IMG/VR virus record: IMGVR_UViG_3300037722_000191
Coordinates: 1-51,359 of that record
DNA from: a virus
Lineage: Duplodnaviria; Caudoviricetes
Strand: one strand, 5' to 3'
Length of the DNA stretch: 51,359 nucleotides
Shown here: piece by piece, positions 454-51,359 of the stretch
Layout of the letters: each line of letters begins with the position of its first letter
Position numbering within the stretch: position 1 is the stretch's first letter
Notes under the pieces: generated by a model
What the model was told of the DNA's origin: nothing
The model's input: the letters and a program-made list of their open reading frames with translations, nothing else
Database searches by the model: none
Translations under genes and position numbers: made by a program

Positions 454-717
454 CTAGTCCGTTCCAACCGCCGCGCGCACCAGATCCATCTGCGTGCGCA
501 ATTCGACGAGCTCGTACAGTTGTTCGCGATACACGTCCATGTGCCGCTCCAGTTGTTCGCGCAGCCGCTTTGTCTCGGCTTCGAGGCGGCGCAGCTTGTG
601 CAATTCCTGTTTGGTCATCATCATTTCCAGTGACGCAGTCCGCGCCGGAGTTATGCGGCAAAGCTGCGCCATAACATTTACGTCAACCGGACTTTGCGCA
701 ACAACCGCCTCGTCCAT
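454..717 (-). CDS. Hypothetical coiled-coil protein (5' end runs through an attC-like site)
   Basis: AGGAGA SD upstream of ATG 717; operon packing; alternative start about 624. Confidence 0.55.
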   Translation of the reverse strand: MDEAVVAQSPVDVNVMAQLCRITPARTASLEMMMTKQELHKLRRLEAETKRLREQLERHMDVYREQLYELVELRTQMDLVRAAVGTD

Positions 718-762
718 TCTCAATCTCCTTCCAGCGCAAGGCCGGTTAGCTCTGCGCTGGAA
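669..762 (+). repeat. attC-like site (chimeric/degenerate)
   Basis: R'' CCATAAC, L'' GT[C]AACCGG...TTGCGC pairing with GCGCAA...CCGGTTAG, R' GCTGGAA. Confidence 0.7.
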
Positions 763-765
763 TGC

Positions 766-1071
766 TCACGCACTCCGCTCAAGGTTTTCGGCCAGTTGGG
801 CGAGCACTCGTTTCGTCCATTCGACTGTGCCGTCGCCGCTTTCCAGCGACTCGCGCAGGTGTCTGATTACCGCCTGCGCATTGCGCACCTTAGCGTCTGC
901 AATGGCCGCGAGCTTGCCGGGGTGATCTTGAAGCGGGCACCACGGCGGGATTTCGCAACTCGCCGGTAGCGGTGCTCCATCCATGCTTCGGCACTCGTAC
1001 TGGCCGCCGCTGTAATAGGATCGCTGCGGGCATTCCTTGCAGTTTGTGACCGTCTTGACGATCTTCAGCAT
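766..1071 (-). CDS. Cys-rich hypothetical protein carried on an attC cassette
   Basis: CKECP...C...C..P.WCPL motif; GGAG SD lies within the attC; flanked by GCTGGAATGCT (756) and AGCATTCCAAC (1067). Confidence 0.7.
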   Translation of the reverse strand: MLKIVKTVTNCKECPQRSYYSGGQYECRSMDGAPLPASCEIPPWCPLQDHPGKLAAIADAKVRNAQAVIRHLRESLESGDGTVEWTKRVLAQLAENLERSA

Positions 1072-1128
1072 TCCAACTCTCCAATGCAGCGGATTCGCTG
1101 CGCTCACCGCTGATTTCCAGCGTTACCC
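1071..1128 (+). repeat. attC-like site (58 bp)
   Basis: R'' TTCCAAC, spacer, AAT[G]CAGCGG / CCGCTGATT with extrahelical base, R' GTTACCC. Confidence 0.8.
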
Positions 1129-1174: not shown

Positions 1175-1705
1175 TCAATTCACGGCCTCGCAAAGCCGTT
1201 CCATCTCCTGTCTTGGAACAGGCTGAAATGGATGCATATCGCGCTTTGCATCTAGGTACGCCTTGTACGCGTCGCTTGGTGAGTCAAAGGCGCCAAGGAA
1301 AGCCCTGTTCCCGTTGGCGCATATGCGCGAATACCATTTCTTGTGTTTATTGTTCCAATGCACTCCAACAAACCCAGAGGTGTTTTTGGAGCTACGCTTC
1401 ATGTTTTGCCCATTCTCTGCTGCGCTTGCATGGCGCAGGCTGGTGGCACGGTTGTCGTTGCGCACCCCGTTTATGTGGTCGATACCGCTAGGCGGGAATG
1501 AGCCTTCAAGGAAGGCCATAGCCAGCCTGTGCGCTTGGTATCGTTTCCCTTGAAACGAAATTTGGACGTAACCGGAATGGAGCAATAAACCTGCAACCTT
1601 GCCGACAATCTTTTGACGGTGAGGATTTTTTACCCAAACGAATTGGCCGCTACTAGGGTTGTATTCCAGATACTGGCGCATCATCGCAATTAGGTCAGGC
1701 TCCAT
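1175..1705 (-). CDS. HNH homing endonuclease with AP2-like C-terminal domain
   Basis: YQAHRLA...IDHINGVRNDNR..L HNH motif; NTSGFVGVHW...LGAF..P.DAY.AY; lower GC than flanks. Confidence 0.9.
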   Translation of the reverse strand: MEPDLIAMMRQYLEYNPSSGQFVWVKNPHRQKIVGKVAGLLLHSGYVQISFQGKRYQAHRLAMAFLEGSFPPSGIDHINGVRNDNRATSLRHASAAENGQNMKRSSKNTSGFVGVHWNNKHKKWYSRICANGNRAFLGAFDSPSDAYKAYLDAKRDMHPFQPVPRQEMERLCEAVN

Positions 1706-6250: not shown

Positions 6251-7120
6251 TTATGCTCCTGCCAATGCGGCTTGTTCGTATTCGGTGACGGCGGAATTGA
6301 TGCGGGCAACGTCGTCGGCGGCCGTGAAGCGATCGAGCAGCTTGAGCCCGCGGTTCTTTGCTTGATCGACCGTCAGGCTCGCGGCGATCCACGCCACCCC
6401 CTTGTCAATCTCGGACTGCTCTGGCTGCGGCGTCGCGCCCGAGCTAAGCCAGTCAAGCAACATGCGTCCGGTGTCCGCGGTGATCTGCTTCGGGTCGCCA
6501 CCGAACAGCCCGGTGCGGTCCTTGGAGGCCGCGGCAAAGTGCCCGTCATGGACGATGTCGAGTACCGTCGTGAATTCGTACTCCGACCCGTCGCGCTGCT
6601 CGGCCTTCATGCCGAGCTTGACGACTTGCTTCTTGCCGTTCGGCCCTTCCGTCTGCGCCGTTTCCGTCTTGCTGCGCATGGTTGCGATGATGTGCAGCGG
6701 CGAACGAAGAATTGCGTCCAGCACGGCACGGTGACGCGGGGTGATGTCGTTCCACGCGCTCCACGAGTTGCCCTTGTACTTGCTGCGTGCGACCTGATCG
6801 ACCAGTTCCAGGCACCCGCCAACGCCGCTCCACTCGTGCGTCAAACTGTCGATGATCAGCACGGCGTACCCGGCGTGCTCAGCGGACTTGATCGCCTCAA
6901 TGAACCGCTCGGGCGTATAGGGCGGGTCAAGGTCAAGCGCGTCGAACTCATGCACATGCGTGTAGAGACTGGCCGACCCGCGCTCGGTATCGATCAGCGC
7001 AACCTTGCCGCCCAACCCCTTCGCCAGCAACAGAGCGCCATACGTCTTGCCGCTGCCGCTCGGGCCGGAAAGCGCCAAGCGAAGTTTTGCTTGCTTCCTC
7101 ACAGCTTTAACGAATTGCAT
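6251..7120 (-). CDS. AAA_24 / Sak4-like ATPase (phage recombination)
   Basis: Walker A GPSGSGKT, Walker B VLIIDS; adjacent to ssb. Confidence 0.85.
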   Translation of the reverse strand: MQFVKAVRKQAKLRLALSGPSGSGKTYGALLLAKGLGGKVALIDTERGSASLYTHVHEFDALDLDPPYTPERFIEAIKSAEHAGYAVLIIDSLTHEWSGVGGCLELVDQVARSKYKGNSWSAWNDITPRHRAVLDAILRSPLHIIATMRSKTETAQTEGPNGKKQVVKLGMKAEQRDGSEYEFTTVLDIVHDGHFAAASKDRTGLFGGDPKQITADTGRMLLDWLSSGATPQPEQSEIDKGVAWIAASLTVDQAKNRGLKLLDRFTAADDVARINSAVTEYEQAALAGA

Positions 7121-7781
7121 GATGATCACCCTTGCGTGACTTGGTTGTAACGGCAGCATCGGGCGACCAGCCAAGCTGCTTTATTCTCTTGTGCGCACAT
7201 GAATAGGCGATTCCGTTCAGTTCGCACCACTCGGCAAGTGTTTTCTGCTCGCCGTCCACTTCGATCATGATGTTCGTGCGCTTGTTGTTTGCTTGGTCGA
7301 GCGCAGTAGCCCACCCGCAGTTTCCGGGCTCGTAGTTGCCGGCGGAATCTTTGCGGTCAATAGTCATGCCGACCGGTCGCTCGCCCATGTCAGCCAGGAA
7401 ATTCTCAAATGACTTCCATCGGTCGCACACTTGCACTCCACGTGCCCCATACAGCCGGTAGTTGTCATGCCCGTGGTCGCAGCAACGTTGAATCATTGAC
7501 CGCCATGACACATATGTCGGCGACTGCGATGCGCGTCGTTTGTGGCCGTGAATTCTCGCGTTCCCTTCTCGCTTAATGCAGCCGCAAGACTGGGTGTGGC
7601 CGCTCTTTAGGTGCTTCTCGATTACTGTCACCTCAGTCCCGCACTCGCACATACATAGCCACGTCGGTCGATTTTCCTTCCCCGTTCGCCCTGCATACTC
7701 CGAAATCCGAAGCCTCCCGAATTGGCCGGAAAGCGCCACCCGTGGGCTGGCCTGCTTCCTCACTGCCTTTTTGAACTCCAT
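7107..7781 (-). CDS. HNH-type (Cys-rich) endonuclease fused to a duplicated ATPase N-terminus
   Basis: WLCMCECG...SCGC...YGARGVQVCDRW..FENFLADMGERP...TIDRKD..GNYEPGNC.WAT..Q.NN; N-term MEFKKAVRKQ. Confidence 0.85.
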   Translation of the reverse strand: MEFKKAVRKQASPRVALSGQFGRLRISEYAGRTGKENRPTWLCMCECGTEVTVIEKHLKSGHTQSCGCIKREGNARIHGHKRRASQSPTYVSWRSMIQRCCDHGHDNYRLYGARGVQVCDRWKSFENFLADMGERPVGMTIDRKDSAGNYEPGNCGWATALDQANNKRTNIMIEVDGEQKTLAEWCELNGIAYSCAHKRIKQLGWSPDAAVTTKSRKGDHHAIR

Positions 7782-16810: not shown

Positions 16811-17007
16811 GCAAGCTCATCATCCAAAACGACTCGTCACACAGCGACGCGCAGGCGCTGCAGTACGTGATGACGGTCATCCGCCAGGGGCGGGTCAGCG
16901 ATGAGGGCCGCGCGTACAACGATGCGCGCTTCGTCGATGGCGTCGTCGTCGCGTCCATGCGGAATGCGCAGTCCGACCGGTTCGTTGTGCGGGACGGTGC
17001 GGCGTGA
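16807..17007 (+). CDS. Hypothetical protein
   Basis: ATGA/GTGA coupling. Confidence 0.6.
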   Translation: MSKLIIQNDSSHSDAQALQYVMTVIRQGRVSDEGRAYNDARFVDGVVVASMRNAQSDRFVVRDGAA

Positions 17008-17426
17008 TGCTCGAGTTCGTCGTACCCGGCGAGCCGGTCGCCAAGGGCAGGCCAAGAGCGTTTCGCGCTGGCGCCGGAATCCGCATGCATACGCCACAGA
17101 AGACCGCGACGTATGAAAACCTGGTGCGCTTCTACTGCGCCAATGCTGCGGCAAGGCCATTTTGCGGGGCGCTGGCGGCCGAAATCGTGGTGGTGCTACC
17201 CATCCCTAGGTCATGGTCAAAAAAACGGCGCAGAGAGGCGCTAATCGGTTCCGTGCATCCGACCAAGCGGCCCGATGCGGACAACTACCTAAAAAGCGCG
17301 CTCGACGGCATGAACGGGGTCGCCTTCGCGGATGACAGCCAGGTGGTGCGCGTCAGCATCGAAAAGCGATATGGCGAGGAGCCGCGAATGATGGTGATCG
17401 TGCGGGAAATCGGGAGCGCGCTATGA
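17004..17426 (+). CDS. rusA: RusA-family Holliday junction resolvase
   Basis: VPGEPVAKGRPR...KRPDADN..K..LD.MNG..F.DDSQVV....K.Y. Confidence 0.92.
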   Translation: MMLEFVVPGEPVAKGRPRAFRAGAGIRMHTPQKTATYENLVRFYCANAAARPFCGALAAEIVVVLPIPRSWSKKRRREALIGSVHPTKRPDADNYLKSALDGMNGVAFADDSQVVRVSIEKRYGEEPRMMVIVREIGSAL

Positions 17427-17762: not shown

Positions 17763-17816
17763 GGGGAGCGCAGAGCTAAGTGGCGCGAAGCGTCCCGCTT
17801 GAGCGCCGGGTATGCG
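17763..17816 (-). repeat. attC-like site (degenerate), top strand on minus
   Basis: Minus: CGCATAC-CCGGC-GCT[C]AAG-CGGGACGCTTCGCGCCA-CTTAGC-TCTGC-GCTCCCC; 19 nt identical to the element at 51167-51185. Confidence 0.7.
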
Positions 17817-49125: not shown

Positions 49126-50097
49126 TCAGTCCAACTTGTCCGCCAGATCGCCCATGTTGGGGGCGTAATAAACGTTGAGCAACGTCGACAGATCCCGATG
49201 ACCGCTCATCTTCGCCAACTCCAGCACGGGCAGCTTCTTTGACAGCCGGGTAAGCGCCTCGCGCCTCAAGTCGTGGAAGCGCAGCCCGTCGACGGCCGCC
49301 TTGGTGCGCGCCTTCGCCCACAGCGCGGAGAGCGAGGCAGGCGCCACGGCGAAGTATCCGGCCGGCAACTGCCTGACGATGCGGATGGCTTCCTTCGACA
49401 GCGGCACGTCCCGCGCGTGACCGTTCTTCGACTCCGGGATGTGCGCCACCCGCCGCTGCAGATCGATCGTCTCCGGCCGCAGCCCGCAGATCTCGCTCGC
49501 GCGCATCGCCGTTTCAACGCCGAACAGGGCCGCCGCGGCGACGCGCGCATTGACCGTCTCCAGCAACCCATCGTGGTAGCCGAGCACGTGCAGCATGGCT
49601 TCCATCTCATCCCCTTCCGGGCGCCGCTTCCTGGCCTTGCCGCCGTCCGGGCGCTTCGCTCGTGTGAATGGGTTGTCGCGTAGCCAGTGCCATTCCTTGA
49701 TCGCCACGCTGCAGGCATGGGACAGGGTGACCCATTCGCGCGCCACAGACGCGGAACTCACCTCCTGCAGCCGCTTGTCCCGCCACGCCGCCACCGATCG
49801 TTCGTCGAAGTCCGGCAGCAGCACCCGGGCGATGTCGGTGCGCTTGATGCGGTTGATGCGCATCGCCTCGGGGCGGGCGCCTTTCTTCGTCGGCGTGATC
49901 TCGCGCGCGTAGCGGTCGAGCAGGTCGGCGAACGGAATCACAGGGATCTCACCGCGACGCTCGGCGTTGAGATTGGCCTCGAACTGCGTCGCCCACGCGG
50001 TCGCCTCGCGCTTCGTCGCGAACGACTCCGACCTATCTACCCCAGCCTTGCGGACGCGCGCCCGCCATTTACTGCCGCGCTTCTCGATGACCGCCAC
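49126..50097 (-). CDS. int: Tyrosine integrase
   Basis: Arm-binding N-term (KRG.KWRA.VR..G...S.SF.TK.EA..WA); catalytic ETAMR.SEI, SKNG, HDLR, SGH, YY. Confidence 0.95.
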   Translation of the reverse strand: MAVIEKRGSKWRARVRKAGVDRSESFATKREATAWATQFEANLNAERRGEIPVIPFADLLDRYAREITPTKKGARPEAMRINRIKRTDIARVLLPDFDERSVAAWRDKRLQEVSSASVAREWVTLSHACSVAIKEWHWLRDNPFTRAKRPDGGKARKRRPEGDEMEAMLHVLGYHDGLLETVNARVAAAALFGVETAMRASEICGLRPETIDLQRRVAHIPESKNGHARDVPLSKEAIRIVRQLPAGYFAVAPASLSALWAKARTKAAVDGLRFHDLRREALTRLSKKLPVLELAKMSGHRDLSTLLNVYYAPNMGDLADKLD

Positions 50098-50123
50098 GTC
50101 GTCCCCGCAATTAAACGCTGGGC
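50098..50123 (+). repeat. 3' half of an attC-like site
   Basis: GTCCCCGC...AAAC-GCTGGGC; R box exactly complementary to GCCCAGC at 51161. Confidence 0.55.
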
Positions 50124-50431
50124 GTCAGCCGATCCATCCGCTCGATCTCGGCCAGGATCAGTGCGGCCGCCTTCACGAGGTCTCGGCGCGCATTGACTGG
50201 CTTCCACCACTTCCGCGCCCATGGCCAGCCATAAGGTGCATCGCTGCAAAGTGTCGTGTCGCCGTCAGCCAGGGCTGTAGCCGCTCCGGCGTTGATGGCA
50301 TAGTTCCCGGCCGCCCGTGCCAACTCCCCGCCGACGTGCTGGTCGTCATGTGCCGGCGTCCATCCCTCTACATCAATCTGCCGTCGCCGCTCGGCAAGTA
50401 CGTCGGTCGCTGCTTTCGTCATGTCCATCAT
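50111..50431 (-). CDS. Conserved phage protein (AERRRQ..EGW...HDD.H family), cassette A
   Basis: DVLAERRRQ...EGWTPAHDD.H..GELA.AA..YA...WPW...WWKP...RRDLVKA.ALI.AEIER.DR; AAGGAG SD. Confidence 0.85.
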   Translation of the reverse strand: MMDMTKAATDVLAERRRQIDVEGWTPAHDDQHVGGELARAAGNYAINAGAATALADGDTTLCSDAPYGWPWARKWWKPVNARRDLVKAAALILAEIERMDRLTPSV

Positions 50432-50448
50432 TTCTCCTTCGGGCCGCA

Positions 50449-50504
50449 GCCCAACTCGTCATTCCAGAGCGGACCCTGCGGGCCGCTGAATTTGGTCGTT
50501 AGCG
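50449..50504 (+). repeat. attC-like site (56 bp)
   Basis: R'' GCCCAAC, 5-nt spacer, ATTC[C]AG(AG)CGG / CCGCTGAAT, R' GTTAGCG. Confidence 0.82.
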
Positions 50505-50677
50505 GCTTGGCGCTCTTGGGCAGCGGCCTCTTCAAGATCCTGGACCGTGCGTGGCTGGCATTCACACCGCGCCGCCCAGGCGTTTGTCCCGTTCCCGTCT
50601 GCATGTTTTGCCTCGCTCGCCGTGTAGCCGTAGCCCATGCACTTCTTGCATTCCTTCTGTCGCTGTTTCCAGTCCAT
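50459..50677 (-). CDS. Small Cys-rich protein, cassette B
   Basis: CKKC.G.G...CEC; GGAG SD; reads into attC. Confidence 0.65.
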   Translation of the reverse strand: MDWKQRQKECKKCMGYGYTASEAKHADGNGTNAWAARCECQPRTVQDLEEAAAQERQAANDQIQRPAGSALE

Positions 50678-50695
50678 CGCCTGCTCCAGGTAAAG

Positions 50696-50753
50696 CCGTT
50701 ACTATGCGGTCAAATCGGACGGGCTGCGCCCGCCGTTTACCGGGCCGTTCGGC
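50696..50753 (+). repeat. attC-like site (58 bp)
   Basis: R'' CCGTTAC (degenerate), GGT[C]AAA-T-CGG..GGGC/GCCC..CCG-TTTACC, R' GTTCGGC. Confidence 0.78.
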
Positions 50754-50941
50754 GTCAGCTTCCGTTTCCGCTGTGCCGTTGCTCGATTGTTCCTGCTCGC
50801 AGCCACGCCGATGGGCTGACCGTCCGCGCTGACGAATACGAAGTCATGCACCAATCCGCAGTCACAGCAGGCAATGCGGTAAATTTCGCCGCTTGGTACC
50901 GTGAAGCCTTCGCCATCCTTCCGCTGCGTGTATCTCGCCAT
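50702..50941 (-). CDS. Small CCDCGL.H protein, cassette C gene 2
   Basis: ACCDCGLVH.F motif; reads into attC. Confidence 0.7.
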   Translation of the reverse strand: MARYTQRKDGEGFTVPSGEIYRIACCDCGLVHDFVFVSADGQPIGVAASRNNRATAQRKRKLTPNGPVNGGRSPSDLTA

Positions 50942-50946
50942 GTCGG

Positions 50947-51144
50947 CTAGTGCTTCGTCGCCAAAACAATCCCACGACGTTGCGCCTCAAGTGCGTAGGT
51001 CATCAGGCCGGCGAAACATGCTTGGTGCCACTCGGATTCTTTTTCAGCTTCGGCCGCTGCTTCAAGGTCGGCCCTGGCGCGCGCCATCGCCGCGATCAGT
51101 TCCGCGTCGTTCAAGCTGTCAAGGTGCTCTCGTACTTCGCTCAT
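50947..51144 (-). CDS. Small helical protein, cassette C gene 1
   Basis: GGAG SD; 65 aa. Confidence 0.65.
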   Translation of the reverse strand: MSEVREHLDSLNDAELIAAMARARADLEAAAEAEKESEWHQACFAGLMTYALEAQRRGIVLATKH

Positions 51145-51160
51145 TTACATCTCCAAAATC

Positions 51161-51192
51161 GCCCAGCCCGGCGCTCAAGCGGGACTGTCGTC
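51161..51192 (+). repeat. 5' half of an attC-like site
   Basis: GCCCAGC-CCGGC-GCT[C]AAG-CGGGAC; 19 nt shared with the 17.8-kb element. Confidence 0.7.
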
Positions 51193-51222
51193 GGGACAGT
51201 GGTTTGGGACAATTTTTGACAC
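51180..51222. promoter_or_regulatory. Candidate integrase arm-type sites
   Basis: Direct repeats CGGGACTG, CGGGACAG, TGGGACAA, TTGACAC spaced about 12-13 nt; TGGGACG also at about 169-175 on the other side of the core. Confidence 0.55.
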
Positions 51223-51232
51223 GAGCCCCGTA

Positions 51233-51359
51233 AAACCAGCGGGAACGAGCGGTTTTCGGGCGCCGCAAAATGAGGCGGAATCCCAGTATGTGCGGGGCTT
51301 TGCGCACTATACGCGGTCATCGCGGAAGGCGCCAGTGTGCCGGGGACGGGACTCGAACC
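51233..51359. repeat. Terminal direct repeat, copy 2
   Basis: Identical to 1-127. Confidence 0.97.

What the first reader, a model, noticed from the sequence alone, without database searches (positions are those of the whole stretch)
50098..51192. Phage genes packaged as inverted integron-type attC cassettes: a three-cassette array between attP and the integrase
Seen: two full attC-like sites (50449-50504, 50696-50753) and two half sites delimit three units. Each has R''(AAC)/L''/L'/R'(GTT) geometry and an extrahelical base. Each unit's left R' roughly complements its right R'' (GCTGGGC/GCCCAAC; GTTAGCGGCTT/AAGCCGTTAC), which is the hallmark of real cassettes. Unlike ordinary integron cassettes, every gene is antisense to the attC top strand, and cassette A encodes a recognisably phage-type family. 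The phage has no IntI. Inference: a phage accessory-gene shuffling system that borrows a host integron integrase, and a possible link between phages and cassette genesis.
Basis: partly seen in the sequence, partly recalled or inferred. Interest (0 to 1): 0.92.

Follow-up and report, generated by a model that had tools for sequence, protein, structure and literature searches.

The report
Integron-type gene cassettes inside a phage
A complete temperate phage genome carries several small genes separated by hairpin sites of the kind that bacterial integrons use to move gene cassettes, but with the genes facing the opposite way from ordinary integron cassettes and with no integron integrase in the phage.

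Summary
With R2, 50449-50504 scores 41.8 bits and 50695-50753 scores 28.0 bits. R2 also finds two more sites across attP (1071-1128, 28.9 bits; 669-762, 25.8 bits). Real class 1 attCs score 24.8-65.9 bits, and 46 of 48 other phage loci (about 282 kb) give no hit.

All four sites have the attC bottom strand on the coding strand. This is the reverse of class 1 arrays (0 of 10 intervals same-strand) and of bacterial arrays (2 of 31).

Relatives swap genes at the R boxes. L004 and an independent soil contig replace genes B and A from 50746 onward, 2 nt from the predicted crossover. The closest homologue of gene A (L231) sits in another array between the same R boxes, GTTGGGC and GCCCAAC.

The phage has no IntI. 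Action of a host IntI in trans is inferred, not shown. Phage-borne attC clusters are already published (Qi et al. 2023). The reversed gene polarity also predominates in 11 attC arrays on IMG/VR viral contigs (69 of 75 intervals), and my searches found no description of it.

The parts
49126..50097 (-). Phage-type tyrosine integrase (323 aa). It is not an integron integrase.
   Evidence: Pfam Phage_integrase 76.4 bits. phrog_1 integrase E 6.6e-51. TIGR02249 13.8 bits against a cut-off of 265.
50119..50125 (-). Left half site. It is a 5' R-box remnant, bottom strand GCCCAGC (AAC mutated to AGC), and marks the end of cassette A.
   Evidence: Read from the sequence. It aligns with GCCCAAC, the 5' box of a full attC after the gene A homologue in L231. 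Its four variable positions are 4 of 4 complementary to the 3' box GTTGGGC of site 1.
50111..50431 (-). Gene A (106 aa), a widespread phage protein family of unknown function.
   Evidence: 9 PHROG families, best E 3.2e-42. 27 viral loci hold relatives. Only the closest (L231, 70%) is flanked by attCs.
The predicted crossover AA|C lies between 50499 and 50498.
   Evidence: R1 24.4 bits. R2 41.8 bits, E 2.5e-8. The minimum-energy DNA fold is an attC-like hairpin with T and G bulges in the 3' half.
50459..50677 (-). Gene B (72 aa). Its conserved core is residues 1-57. The tail is read through site 1.
   Evidence: 24 representative relatives. Their matched stretches end at query residue 43-65, in 17 of 24 at 55-60. 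P0001 diverges after residue 55.
The predicted crossover lies between 50748 and 50747. Its 3' box is degenerate (GTA).
   Evidence: R2 28.0 bits. R1 gives only partial hits of 7-8 bits. It shares a 20-nt identical core with the aadA5 attC of L062. Its counterpart in L004 scores 44.2 bits.
50702..50941 (-). Gene C (79 aa), a small phage protein with a CCDCGLVHDF motif. Its tail is read through site 2.
   Evidence: 23 viral loci hold relatives, with matches mostly covering residues 2-62.
50947..51144 (-). Gene D (65 aa), with no family match.
   Evidence: ORF list. No Pfam, PHROG or NCBIfam hit. Present in L004.
51161..51185 (-). Right half site. It is the 3' half of an attC, with R box GCTGGGC (GTT mutated to GCT).
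   Evidence: 51167-51185 is a 19-nt exact repeat of 17792-17810(+), with 0 expected. The same 19-22 nt occur in attCs of the arrays L105, L181 and L184.
51338..51359 (-). Putative attP core resembling a tRNA 3' end. It continues at 128 across the circular junction, because 1-127 repeats 51233-51359.
   Evidence: The terminal 127-nt overlap is shown. The resemblance to a tRNA T arm and acceptor end is my reading of the sequence; ARAGORN calls no tRNA. The same motif lies beside int in L005 and L006.
669..762 (-). attC-type site 4. A ribosome-binding site and an ATG sit in its loop. Its 5' box is TTCCAGC (AGC core).
   Evidence: R2 25.8 bits. 29 of 30 nt of its 3' half are identical to attCs in many arrays. 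A 27-nt stretch is 96% identical to the L032 attC. Sequence.
766..1074 (-). Gene between sites 3 and 4 (about 102 aa), with no family match.
   Evidence: The 3' box GTTGGAA of site 3 and the 5' box TTCCAGC of site 4 are 4 of 4 complementary at the variable positions.
1071..1128 (-). attC-type site 3. The predicted crossover lies between 1123 and 1122.
   Evidence: R1 23.9 bits. R2 28.9 bits. Its minimum-energy fold is two small hairpins, not the attC fold.
1175..1705 (-). HNH endonuclease gene upstream of site 3.
   Evidence: Pfam HNH_3 33 bits. phrog_99 E 4.3e-55.
17769..17810 (+). Partial attC-like hairpin without recognisable R boxes, lying between + strand genes.
   Evidence: R2 20.7 bits, model positions 7-64. 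Context.

Best explanation
The window is a complete, circularly assembled temperate tailed phage. Its accessory genes on both sides of attP are integron-type gene cassettes. These are D-C, B and A on the integrase side, and at least one gene between 669 and 1128 on the other side of attP, beyond a 97-aa ORF that I take to be the excisionase.

Each unit is bounded by a folded-hairpin recombination site of the attC family. Exchange happens at the conserved AA|C of the 5' R box on the bottom strand, so relatives carry different genes from exactly that point on.

The phage has no integron integrase, so this is a cluster of attC sites lacking an integrase (CALIN). Any excision or insertion would have to be carried out in trans by an IntI of the host. 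That step is inferred.

Unlike ordinary cassettes, each gene lies on the attC bottom strand. In this orientation the attC sits just upstream of its own gene, next to or around that gene's ribosome-binding site and start codon. The tail of the preceding ORF is read through the attC. The cassettes are probably transcribed together with the integrase gene as one leftward unit (inferred).

Several boundary boxes carry core mutations (AAC to AGC, GTT to GTA or GCT). These would be expected to freeze those junctions (inferred).
For: 1. Model scores. Two attC covariance models hit four sites at full length, all on the minus strand: R1 24.4 and 23.9 bits; R2 41.8, 28.9, 28.0 and 25.8 bits. The next full-length hit in the window scores 13.1 bits.

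2. Controls. 22 class 1 attC hits score 24.8-65.9 bits with R2, including attCs that were not used for either model (aadA5, qacG2, ereA, arr-2, arr-3, dfrA17). 46 of 48 other phage loci give nothing at E<=1. With R1, 44 of 46 phage loci give nothing at E<=10.

3. Structure is conserved through compensatory change. Over 12 sites from four viral contigs (the window, L032, L004, L076), 89.2% of cells are paired against 72.8% in shuffles (0 of 500 shuffles reach the observed value). 12 of 20 pairs change on both sides. Slid controls give 25-40% paired.

4. Sequence identity to genuine attCs. Site 2 shares a 20-nt core with the aadA5 attC. Site 4 shares 29 of 30 nt with many array attCs.

5. Breakpoints in relatives.
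- L004 (integrase 89% identical at protein level) keeps D and C at 92.7% DNA identity up to ...GCCSAACG (window 50746). It then has a different attC (44.2 bits) and a different gene in place of B and A.
- A 21.8-kb contig of an independent soil run shows the same joint at 50746.
- The gene A homologue in L231 is flanked by attCs of 43.4 and 49.1 bits and by the same R boxes, GTTGGGC and GCCCAAC. Its downstream neighbour is different and nothing upstream aligns.

6. The cassette hallmark. The 3' box of one attC complements the 5' box of the next attC across the gene. All 4 variable positions match in 7 of 10 class 1 intervals, 21 of 29 bacterial intervals and 69 of 90 IMG/VR intervals. Within one hairpin the figures are 1 of 15, 4 of 45 and 17 of 103. 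In the window, site 3 to site 4 gives 4 of 4. Site 1 to the left half site gives 4 of 4 by my reading of the sequence.

7. No IntI in the phage.

8. Published precedent. Qi et al. found 17 CALINs in 10,705 phage genomes, and IntI1 recombined 5 of the 6 phage attCs they tested (PMC9892861, section 3.4 read).
Against: - No recombination event was observed. No read or contig shows an excised or empty form other than the L004-type variant.
- Folding energies of sites 1 and 2 are only 1.2-1.6 sd better than shuffles.
- The minimum-energy folds of sites 3 and 4 are not the attC fold.
- Site 2 lacks the GTT of its 3' box. Site 4 and the left half site have AGC instead of AAC at the cleavage box.
- For cassette B, R-box complementarity across the gene is poor without a gap: 1 of 4 with R2's boundaries, or 4 of 7 with the 3' box read one base in. 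It reaches 9 of 11 only with one gap.
- R1 scores site 2 at only 7-8 bits.
- The relative P0001 of gene B diverges about 14 nt before the predicted crossover of site 1.
- The homology break with L004 at window 617 is not at an attC.
- The host is unknown, so it is unknown whether it has an IntI.
- Five near-complete array-bearing viral records have no match at all to the IntI model at E<=0.001. Such arrays therefore persist in phages without a resident integron integrase.
- My models are home-made. IntegronFinder's model and thresholds were not available.
Confidence: 0.66

Rival explanations
1. Fossil cassettes. The sites descend from genuine attCs, and the genes once arrived as cassettes. The set in this phage is now inactive. 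The hairpins survive only as intergenic spacers or RNA structures that also shape ORF tails and translation starts.
For: Core mutations occur in 4 of the boxes: AGC at 756-762 and at 50119-50125, GTA in site 2, and GCT at 51161-51167. The window's scores (25.8-41.8 bits) lie at the low end of genuine sites. Sites 3 and 4 do not adopt the attC fold at minimum energy. One site is only a half and another lacks its R boxes.
Against: Site 1 is intact in all the features examined and scores 41.8 bits. Close relatives differ by whole units at the R box, which points to recent exchange. Compensatory changes keep the stems.
Confidence: 0.2
2. Phage-native hairpin family. The elements serve the phage itself, without any integron integrase. 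They could act as intercistronic RNA structures that control translation, or as short conserved boundary sequences where general or phage-encoded recombination swaps modules.
For: The bias in gene orientation is the reverse of that in integrons. Start codons and ribosome-binding sites sit in or right after the hairpins. Five near-complete phage records with 9-12 such sites have no IntI-like gene. The short conserved box GCCSAACG could serve as microhomology.
Against: The arrays on viral contigs obey the same cross-gene R-box rule as class 1 and bacterial arrays (69 of 90 intervals against 17 of 103 within hairpins). That rule is the footprint of cleavage at one fixed position followed by circularisation, not of homologous exchange. 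Some of these sites are nearly identical to aadA-type attC bottom strands. One array (L121) abuts a true IntI that is 54% identical to IntI1.
Confidence: 0.1
3. The phage's own tyrosine integrase, whose gene directly follows the array, recombines the hairpin sites.
For: The array ends 21 nt before the integrase start codon with an R-box-like GCCCAGC. This mirrors the L121 array, which ends with GCCTAAC 38 nt before intI. A 39% identical integrase lies beside four attCs in L076.
Against: The enzyme is an ordinary phage integrase. It has a weak, below-cut-off match to an arm-DNA-binding domain, and TGTCCC repeats (arm-type sites, by my reading) lie beside a tRNA-like attP. It scores 13.8 bits on the IntI model. 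The relative L005 has the same integrase and attP but no cassettes. In L076 the geometry is different, with the array convergent on the integrase gene.
Confidence: 0.03
4. Chance. AAC...GTT pairs and GC-rich hairpins are common in a 62% GC genome.
For: Energy z-scores of sites 1 and 2 are not significant. Half sites taken as bare 7-mers are weak evidence.
Against: Four full-length model hits score 25.8-41.8 bits against none above 13.1 bits elsewhere in the window, and none in about 282 kb of other phage DNA. There are exact 19-20 nt identities to other attCs. Breakpoints in relatives fall at the boxes.
Confidence: 0.01

Closest known systems
CALINs (clusters of attC sites lacking an integron integrase) in bacteriophage genomes, Qi et al. 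2023, Front Microbiol 14:1091391 (PMC9892861)
   Same: A phage genome holds two or more predicted attC sites within a few kb and no IntI. The criterion there was an Infernal score of 20 bits or more and at least 2 sites within 3 kb (section 2.1 read). The window's four sites score 25.8-41.8 bits with my own model and lie about 1.9 kb apart across the circular junction.
   Different: The passages I read (abstract, sections 2.1 and 3.4, and a word search for orientation terms) do not mention genes lying on the attC bottom strand, start codons inside attC loops, or a position straddling attP beside a phage integrase. Their figures and supplements were not visible to me and may bear on this. My scores come from a different model from theirs.
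Ordinary integron cassette arrays (class 1 mobile integrons and chromosomal arrays)
   Same: The hairpin architecture is the same: R boxes, unpaired spacer, L boxes with bulged T and G, variable loop. The cross-gene R-box complementarity is the same. Gene replacement at the R box is the same.
   Different: There is no IntI and no attI. Genes lie on the bottom strand in the window. In controls, genes lie on the opposite strand in 10 of 10 class 1 intervals and 29 of 31 bacterial intervals. Several R-box cores are mutated.
Cassette insertion outside att sites (attG sites, isolated cassettes or SALINs), Loot et al., bioRxiv 10.1101/2022.09.11.507474
   Same: It offers a route by which IntI could place cassettes into a genome that has no attI, such as a phage (abstract and outline read).
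   Different: I did not test whether the phage junctions resemble attG sites. That route would not by itself explain why the genes lie on the bottom strand.
Phage morons and accessory-gene slots beside int and attP
   Same: This is a variable slot between the repeats I read as arm sites and the integrase start. It is empty in L005, holds one unrelated gene in L006, D-C-X in L004 and D-C-B-A here.
   Different: Here the units are bounded by attC-type sites and break at the R boxes. They are not bounded by promoter and terminator pairs: 0 promoter-like and 0 terminator-like sites were found in 49900-51359.

Membership tests
Integron attC recombination site | Scores with an attC covariance model in the range of genuine sites and above background. 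| tested here: met
   R2 gives 41.8, 28.9, 28.0 and 25.8 bits for the four sites. Class 1 sites score 24.8-65.9 bits, and 46 of 48 phage loci give no hit. R1 supports sites 1 and 3 only (24.4 and 23.9 bits). IntegronFinder's own model was not available.
Integron attC recombination site | R boxes with conserved 5'-AAC and GTT-3' cores that pair (consensus RYYYAAC / GTTRRRY, recalled). | tested here: inconclusive
   Met in site 1 (CGCTAAC / GTTGGGC) and site 3 (GGGTAAC / GTTGGAA). Not met in site 2 (3' box GTA) or site 4 (5' box AGC).
Integron attC recombination site | Bulged (extrahelical) bases on one arm, which mark the recombined bottom strand. | tested here: met
   In the model alignments, sites 1 and 2 have the T and G bulges in the 3' half of the minus strand, as in class 1 bottom strands. 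That these bulges direct strand choice is recalled, and is also stated in the listing of PMC2727003 and PMC5027507.
Integron attC recombination site | The single strand folds into the hairpin. | tested here: inconclusive
   Sites 1 and 2 adopt an attC-like hairpin at minimum energy, but with z of only -1.2 to -1.6. Sites 3 and 4 prefer other folds. Genuine attCs range from z = -0.3 to -5.7 in the same test.
Integron attC recombination site | Recombined by an integron integrase. | not testable with these tools
   This needs the attC x attI conjugation assay.
Integron gene cassette | The R box at the far end of the unit complements the unit's own attC box, which is the footprint of circularisation. 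| tested here: inconclusive
   4 of 4 variable positions for the 766-1074 unit. 4 of 4 for unit A against the left half site (read from the sequence; 7 of 7 in L231). 3 of 4 for D-C. For B, 1 of 4 with R2's boundaries, or 9 of 11 with one gap. The random expectation for 4 of 4 is about 14%.
Integron gene cassette | The same unit occurs in different contexts, with boundaries at the R boxes. | tested here: met
   L004 and the soil contig break at 50746. The gene A homologue lies in the L231 array with the same boxes and a different downstream neighbour.
Complete integron | An intI gene with an adjacent attI. | tested here: not met
   TIGR02249 gives 13.8 bits against a cut-off of 265 in the whole 51,359-base record. 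tblastn with IntI1 finds no hit in the window.
CALIN | Two or more attC sites close together with no integron integrase nearby (definition as used in PMC9892861, section 2.1). | tested here: met
   Four sites lie within about 1.9 kb across the circular junction, and there is no IntI.

The most novel reading that the evidence does not exclude
Phage-borne integron cassettes form a distinct reverse-polarity class. In them the gene lies on the attC bottom strand, so the attC precedes its gene and often supplies the ribosome-binding site, the start codon and the first residues. Arrays are read towards a recombinase gene. Such arrays are common in phage genomes that have no IntI of their own. They still carry the cross-gene R-box footprint of IntI-type recombination. 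This would imply a cassette pool that circulates through phages separately from the pool expressed from the cassette promoter (Pc) of bacterial integrons. It could bear on where cassettes and attC sites come from.
Probability: 0.4. Interest if true: 0.85.

Novelty: new variant of a known kind. Interest (0 to 1): 0.72.

Why it matters
How integron cassettes arise, and how they travel between lineages, is an open question. Phages were only recently shown to carry attC sites.

This phage, with its relatives, gives a concrete and testable case. The same slot beside attP and int is empty or filled with different units in close relatives, and the units break at the recombination box.

The reversed gene polarity is the more surprising part. 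It is 69 of 75 determinable intervals in arrays on viral contigs, against 2 of 31 in bacterial arrays and 0 of 10 in class 1 arrays. It means these units would be silent if they were captured by an ordinary integron, and that in the phage the recombinogenic strand is the non-template strand.

If IntI acts on them, temperate phages become both carriers and editors of cassette content. If it does not, attC-like hairpins have a second, integrase-independent life in phages.

Tried and rejected
- **Rfam.** A scan of 49900-51359 at E<=10 gave only five sub-threshold chance hits and no attC family.
- **Folding energy as a test.** I rejected it because genuine attCs span z = -0.3 to -5.7.
- **First automatic extraction of class 1 attCs.** It picked false sites inside genes. 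I re-extracted using only the intervals between genes. A first alignment that included long attCs was misaligned and was dropped.
- **First crude count of ORF polarity.** The longest-ORF count gave 57 same, 19 opposite and 9 undetermined. I replaced it with a count weighted by third-position GC content, with controls.
- **Relatives of gene B.** None turned up in viral, genome or metagenome contigs by pattern search. The gene at 766-1074 also had none.
- **Host.** The best integrase relative among species-representative genomes is 48% identical, so the host stays unknown.
- **Promoters and terminators.** The scan found 0 promoter-like and 0 terminator-like sites in 49900-51359.
- **Sequencing runs.** X1 may be the source sample and is not independent. 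X2 holds only fragments of the integrase gene and short attC-like pieces. Its lack of cover over 50185-50658 says nothing.
- **Paper supplements.** They were closed. Tables S1, S2 and S4 of Qi et al. may list the orientation of cassettes in their phages.
Full report
**What the window is.** The record is a complete, circularly assembled virus genome. Bases 1-127 repeat 51233-51359. It encodes a large terminase, portal, head morphogenesis protein, tape measure, tail protein, DnaB-like helicase, O-like initiator, endolysin and an HNH endonuclease. It also encodes a 323-aa phage-type tyrosine integrase at 49126-50097(-).

Read along the minus strand across the junction, the order is:
- HNH gene (1705-1175)
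- a 102-aa gene (1074-766)
- an 87-aa gene (717-454)
- a 97-aa ORF that I take to be the excisionase (430-137; no family match)
- a stretch resembling a tRNA 3' end, which I read as the attP core (ARAGORN calls no tRNA)
- three TGTCCC repeats
- genes D, C, B and A
- the integrase

**Testing the attC claim.** No attC family exists in Rfam, so I built models.

From 13 plasmid records with class 1 integrons I cut attC sites out of the intervals between cassette genes. I aligned 10 bottom strands and built model R1 with a hand-written structure.

R1 results:
- It found attCs that it was not built from: qacG2 42.3 bits, aadA5 33.4, CARB-2 31, ereA 26.6, dfrA17 13.4, dfrA27 12.8. It missed arr-2, arr-3 and dfrA16.
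- In the window it gave two full-length hits, 50449-50504(-) at 24.4 bits and 1071-1128(-) at 23.9 bits. The next hit scored 12.5 bits.
- In 46 other phage loci (276,602 bases) it hit only L032 (three sites) and L030. L030 lies on the same contig as the close relative L004.

A motif from these sites led to 116 stretches on IMG/VR contigs. 80 of these were returned as loci, and R1 found 276 attC hits in them. From 53 of those 80 loci I took the 147 best hits and built model R2.

R2 results:
- It is the better general model. It detects 22 class 1 attC hits at 24.8-65.9 bits, all on the strand opposite to the genes. These include arr-2, arr-3 and dfrA17.
- It gives nothing at E<=1 in 46 of 48 phage loci, about 282 kb.
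- In the window with filters off, it gives four full-length hits, all on the minus strand: 50449-50504 (41.8 bits), 1071-1128 (28.9), 50695-50753 (28.0) and 669-762 (25.8). It also gives a partial hit at 17769-17810(+) (20.7 bits). Everything else scores 13.1 bits or less.

**Further support that these are attC relatives.**
- Site 2 shares a 20-nt identical core with the aadA5 attC.
- The 3' half of site 4 is 29 of 30 nt identical to attCs in many arrays.
- Over 12 sites from four viral contigs (window 4, L032 3, L004 1, L076 4), the stems are kept through compensatory changes. 89.2% of cells are paired against 72.8% in shuffles (0 of 500). 12 of 20 pairs change on both sides. Slid controls give 25-40%. 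The alignment was fitted to the model, which favours the structure.

**Results that weigh against.**
- Folding energy is weak for sites 1 and 2 (z = -1.2 to -1.6).
- The minimum-energy folds of sites 3 and 4 are not the attC fold. Genuine attCs in the same test range from z = -0.3 to -5.7, so this test does not discriminate.
- Site 2 has GTA instead of GTT in its 3' box.
- Site 4 and the left half site have AGC instead of AAC.
- The right half site has GCT instead of GTT.

**Polarity.** The models represent the bottom strand. In class 1 loci the hits lie opposite to the genes. In the window they lie on the gene strand.

I checked how unusual this is.
- Between consecutive attCs, the best coding ORF lay opposite to the model hit in 10 of 10 class 1 intervals.
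- It lay opposite in 29 of 32 intervals of 19 bacterial loci, with 2 on the same strand and 1 undetermined. These loci came from an R2 search of 151 Gammaproteobacteria genomes; loci from the two unpublished genomes were left out.
- In 11 arrays on IMG/VR contigs it lay on the same strand in 69 of 85 intervals, opposite in 6, and undetermined in 10.
- Pfam confirms three of the same-strand ORFs as real genes: two N6_N4 methyltransferases and a DHHA1 protein.
- Two loci hold a true IntI (52-54% identical to IntI1). In both, the attC strand relative to intI is the canonical one. In L121 it is therefore the genes, and not the sites, that are reversed.
- Of 10 array-bearing viral records, 3 have a phrog_2 terminase match. 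Five are rated 90-100% complete, and none of those five has any match to the IntI model at E<=0.001.

After cleavage at AA|C, the last six bases of a unit should complement the far R box of the unit's own attC, and not the box next to it in the same hairpin. Counting the four variable positions:

| Set | All 4 complementary across the gene | All 4 complementary within one hairpin |
|---|---|---|
| Class 1 arrays | 7 of 10 | 1 of 15 |
| Bacterial arrays | 21 of 29 | 4 of 45 |
| IMG/VR arrays | 69 of 90 | 17 of 103 |

Random pairs give about 14%. The rule holds, and the reversed-polarity arrays obey it.

In the window:
- The unit between sites 3 and 4 gives 4 of 4 (GTTGGAA / TTCCAGC).
- Unit A gives 4 of 4 against the left half site (GTTGGGC / GCCCAGC; my reading).
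- D-C gives 3 of 4.
- B gives 1 of 4 with R2's boundaries and only 9 of 11 with one gap.

This rule is symmetric with respect to strand, so it does not test polarity.

**Relatives.** The slot between the TGTCCC repeats and the integrase start varies: it is empty in L005, holds one unrelated gene in L006, and holds D, C and a different gene in L004.
- Against L004, DNA identity of 92.7% runs through D and C to ...GCCSAACG (window 50746). That is 2 nt past the predicted crossover 50748|50747. From there a different attC (44.2 bits) and a different gene follow.
- A 21.8-kb contig of an independent soil run has the same joint at 50746, with 397 other letters in place of 677.
- Of 27 loci with gene A relatives, only the closest (L231, 70% identical) has attCs, and it has four. 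There the gene is preceded by an attC ending in GTTGGGC and followed by GCCCAAC, which opens the next attC. The window has GTTGGGC and GCCCAGC at the same two places. Nothing upstream aligns, and downstream the window has the integrase where L231 has another cassette.
- Gene C (23 loci) and gene B (24 representative relatives) are ordinary small phage gene families. Their conserved cores stop before the attCs, so the ORF tails are simply read through the sites.
- Not every joint is at an attC. The L004 break at window 617 is not. P0001 diverges about 14 nt before the crossover of site 1.

**Mechanism.**
- Shown: attC-type sites; reversed gene polarity; the cross-gene R-box footprint; unit replacement at the R box; no IntI in the phage.
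- Inferred: a host IntI acts in trans, as IntI1 did on 5 of 6 phage attCs tested by Qi et al.. Units leave and enter as circles. The cassettes and int are read as one transcript; no promoter-like or terminator-like site lies in 49900-51359. The mutated cores at the outer boundaries hold the block in place.
- The host is unknown.

**Comparison and novelty.** Phage CALINs are published: 17 in 10,705 genomes. The presence of attC sites in a phage is therefore a new member of a known kind.

The new features are the genes on the bottom strand, the start codons in attC loops, the position astride attP next to a phage integrase, and the prevalence of this polarity in arrays on viral contigs. Four full-text searches and a word search of Qi et al. 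found no description of these features. Figures and supplements were not visible to me.

Noticed in passing
Loci L071-L150 (IMG/VR contigs found with the motif), e.g. L137, L128, L129, L081, L105, L088: These contigs hold long arrays of 7-12 attC sites. In 69 of 75 determinable intervals the ORF lies on the attC bottom strand. This is the reverse of bacterial arrays (2 of 31) and class 1 arrays (0 of 10). The arrays still obey the cross-gene R-box rule (69 of 90). Five records rated 90-100% complete have no IntI-like gene, and 3 of 10 records have a terminase match.
   Followed up: partly
window 669-762(-); L032 3574-3671(+); L121 about 7100-7230(+); L076 6808-6922(-): In long-loop attCs, a ribosome-binding site and an ATG sit inside the hairpin loop. 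The 3' half of the attC encodes the first residues of the downstream protein. Recurrent N-termini include PVDVNV, GPVERPVG and GQVERSVRP.
   Followed up: partly
L121 788-8279: This locus holds a true integron integrase (54% identical to IntI1) directly downstream of an attC array and co-directional with its genes. The array ends with GCCTAAC 38 nt before the intI start codon. The cassette genes include two N6_N4 DNA methyltransferases.
   Followed up: partly
L076 4046-8126: An integrase 39% identical to the window's, preceded by an HNH gene like window 1175-1705, lies next to four strong attCs (53-71 bits). Small genes lie on the attC bottom strand and converge on the integrase gene.
   Followed up: partly
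window 50442-50454 and 50516-50528: A 13-nt inverted repeat (92% complementary) brackets site 1. One arm overlaps the 3' R box. The other lies in the conserved coding part of gene B (residues AAAQE), just where the relative P0001 diverges. The 91-nt stretch folds with z = -3.7. Its meaning is unexplained.
   Followed up: no
window 17769-17810(+): An attC-like hairpin without R boxes lies between + strand genes downstream of a 140-aa ORF at 17004-17426 that I take to be RusA-like (no family search run), followed by a ribosome-binding site and an ATG. Its 3' half is repeated exactly at 51167-51185(-).
   Followed up: partly
window 51178-51211(-): Three direct TGTCCC/AGTCCC repeats lie between the tRNA-like attP core and gene D. 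They are probably arm-type integrase binding sites. The third overlaps the right attC half site. Similar repeats occur in L005 and L006.
   Followed up: no
L064 and L065 (plasmids NZ_MT559998.1 and CP028952.1): Group II intron reverse transcriptase genes are annotated directly after the dfrA14 and blaIMP-4 cassettes, on the opposite strand. This fits the known class of introns that target attC sites.
   Followed up: no
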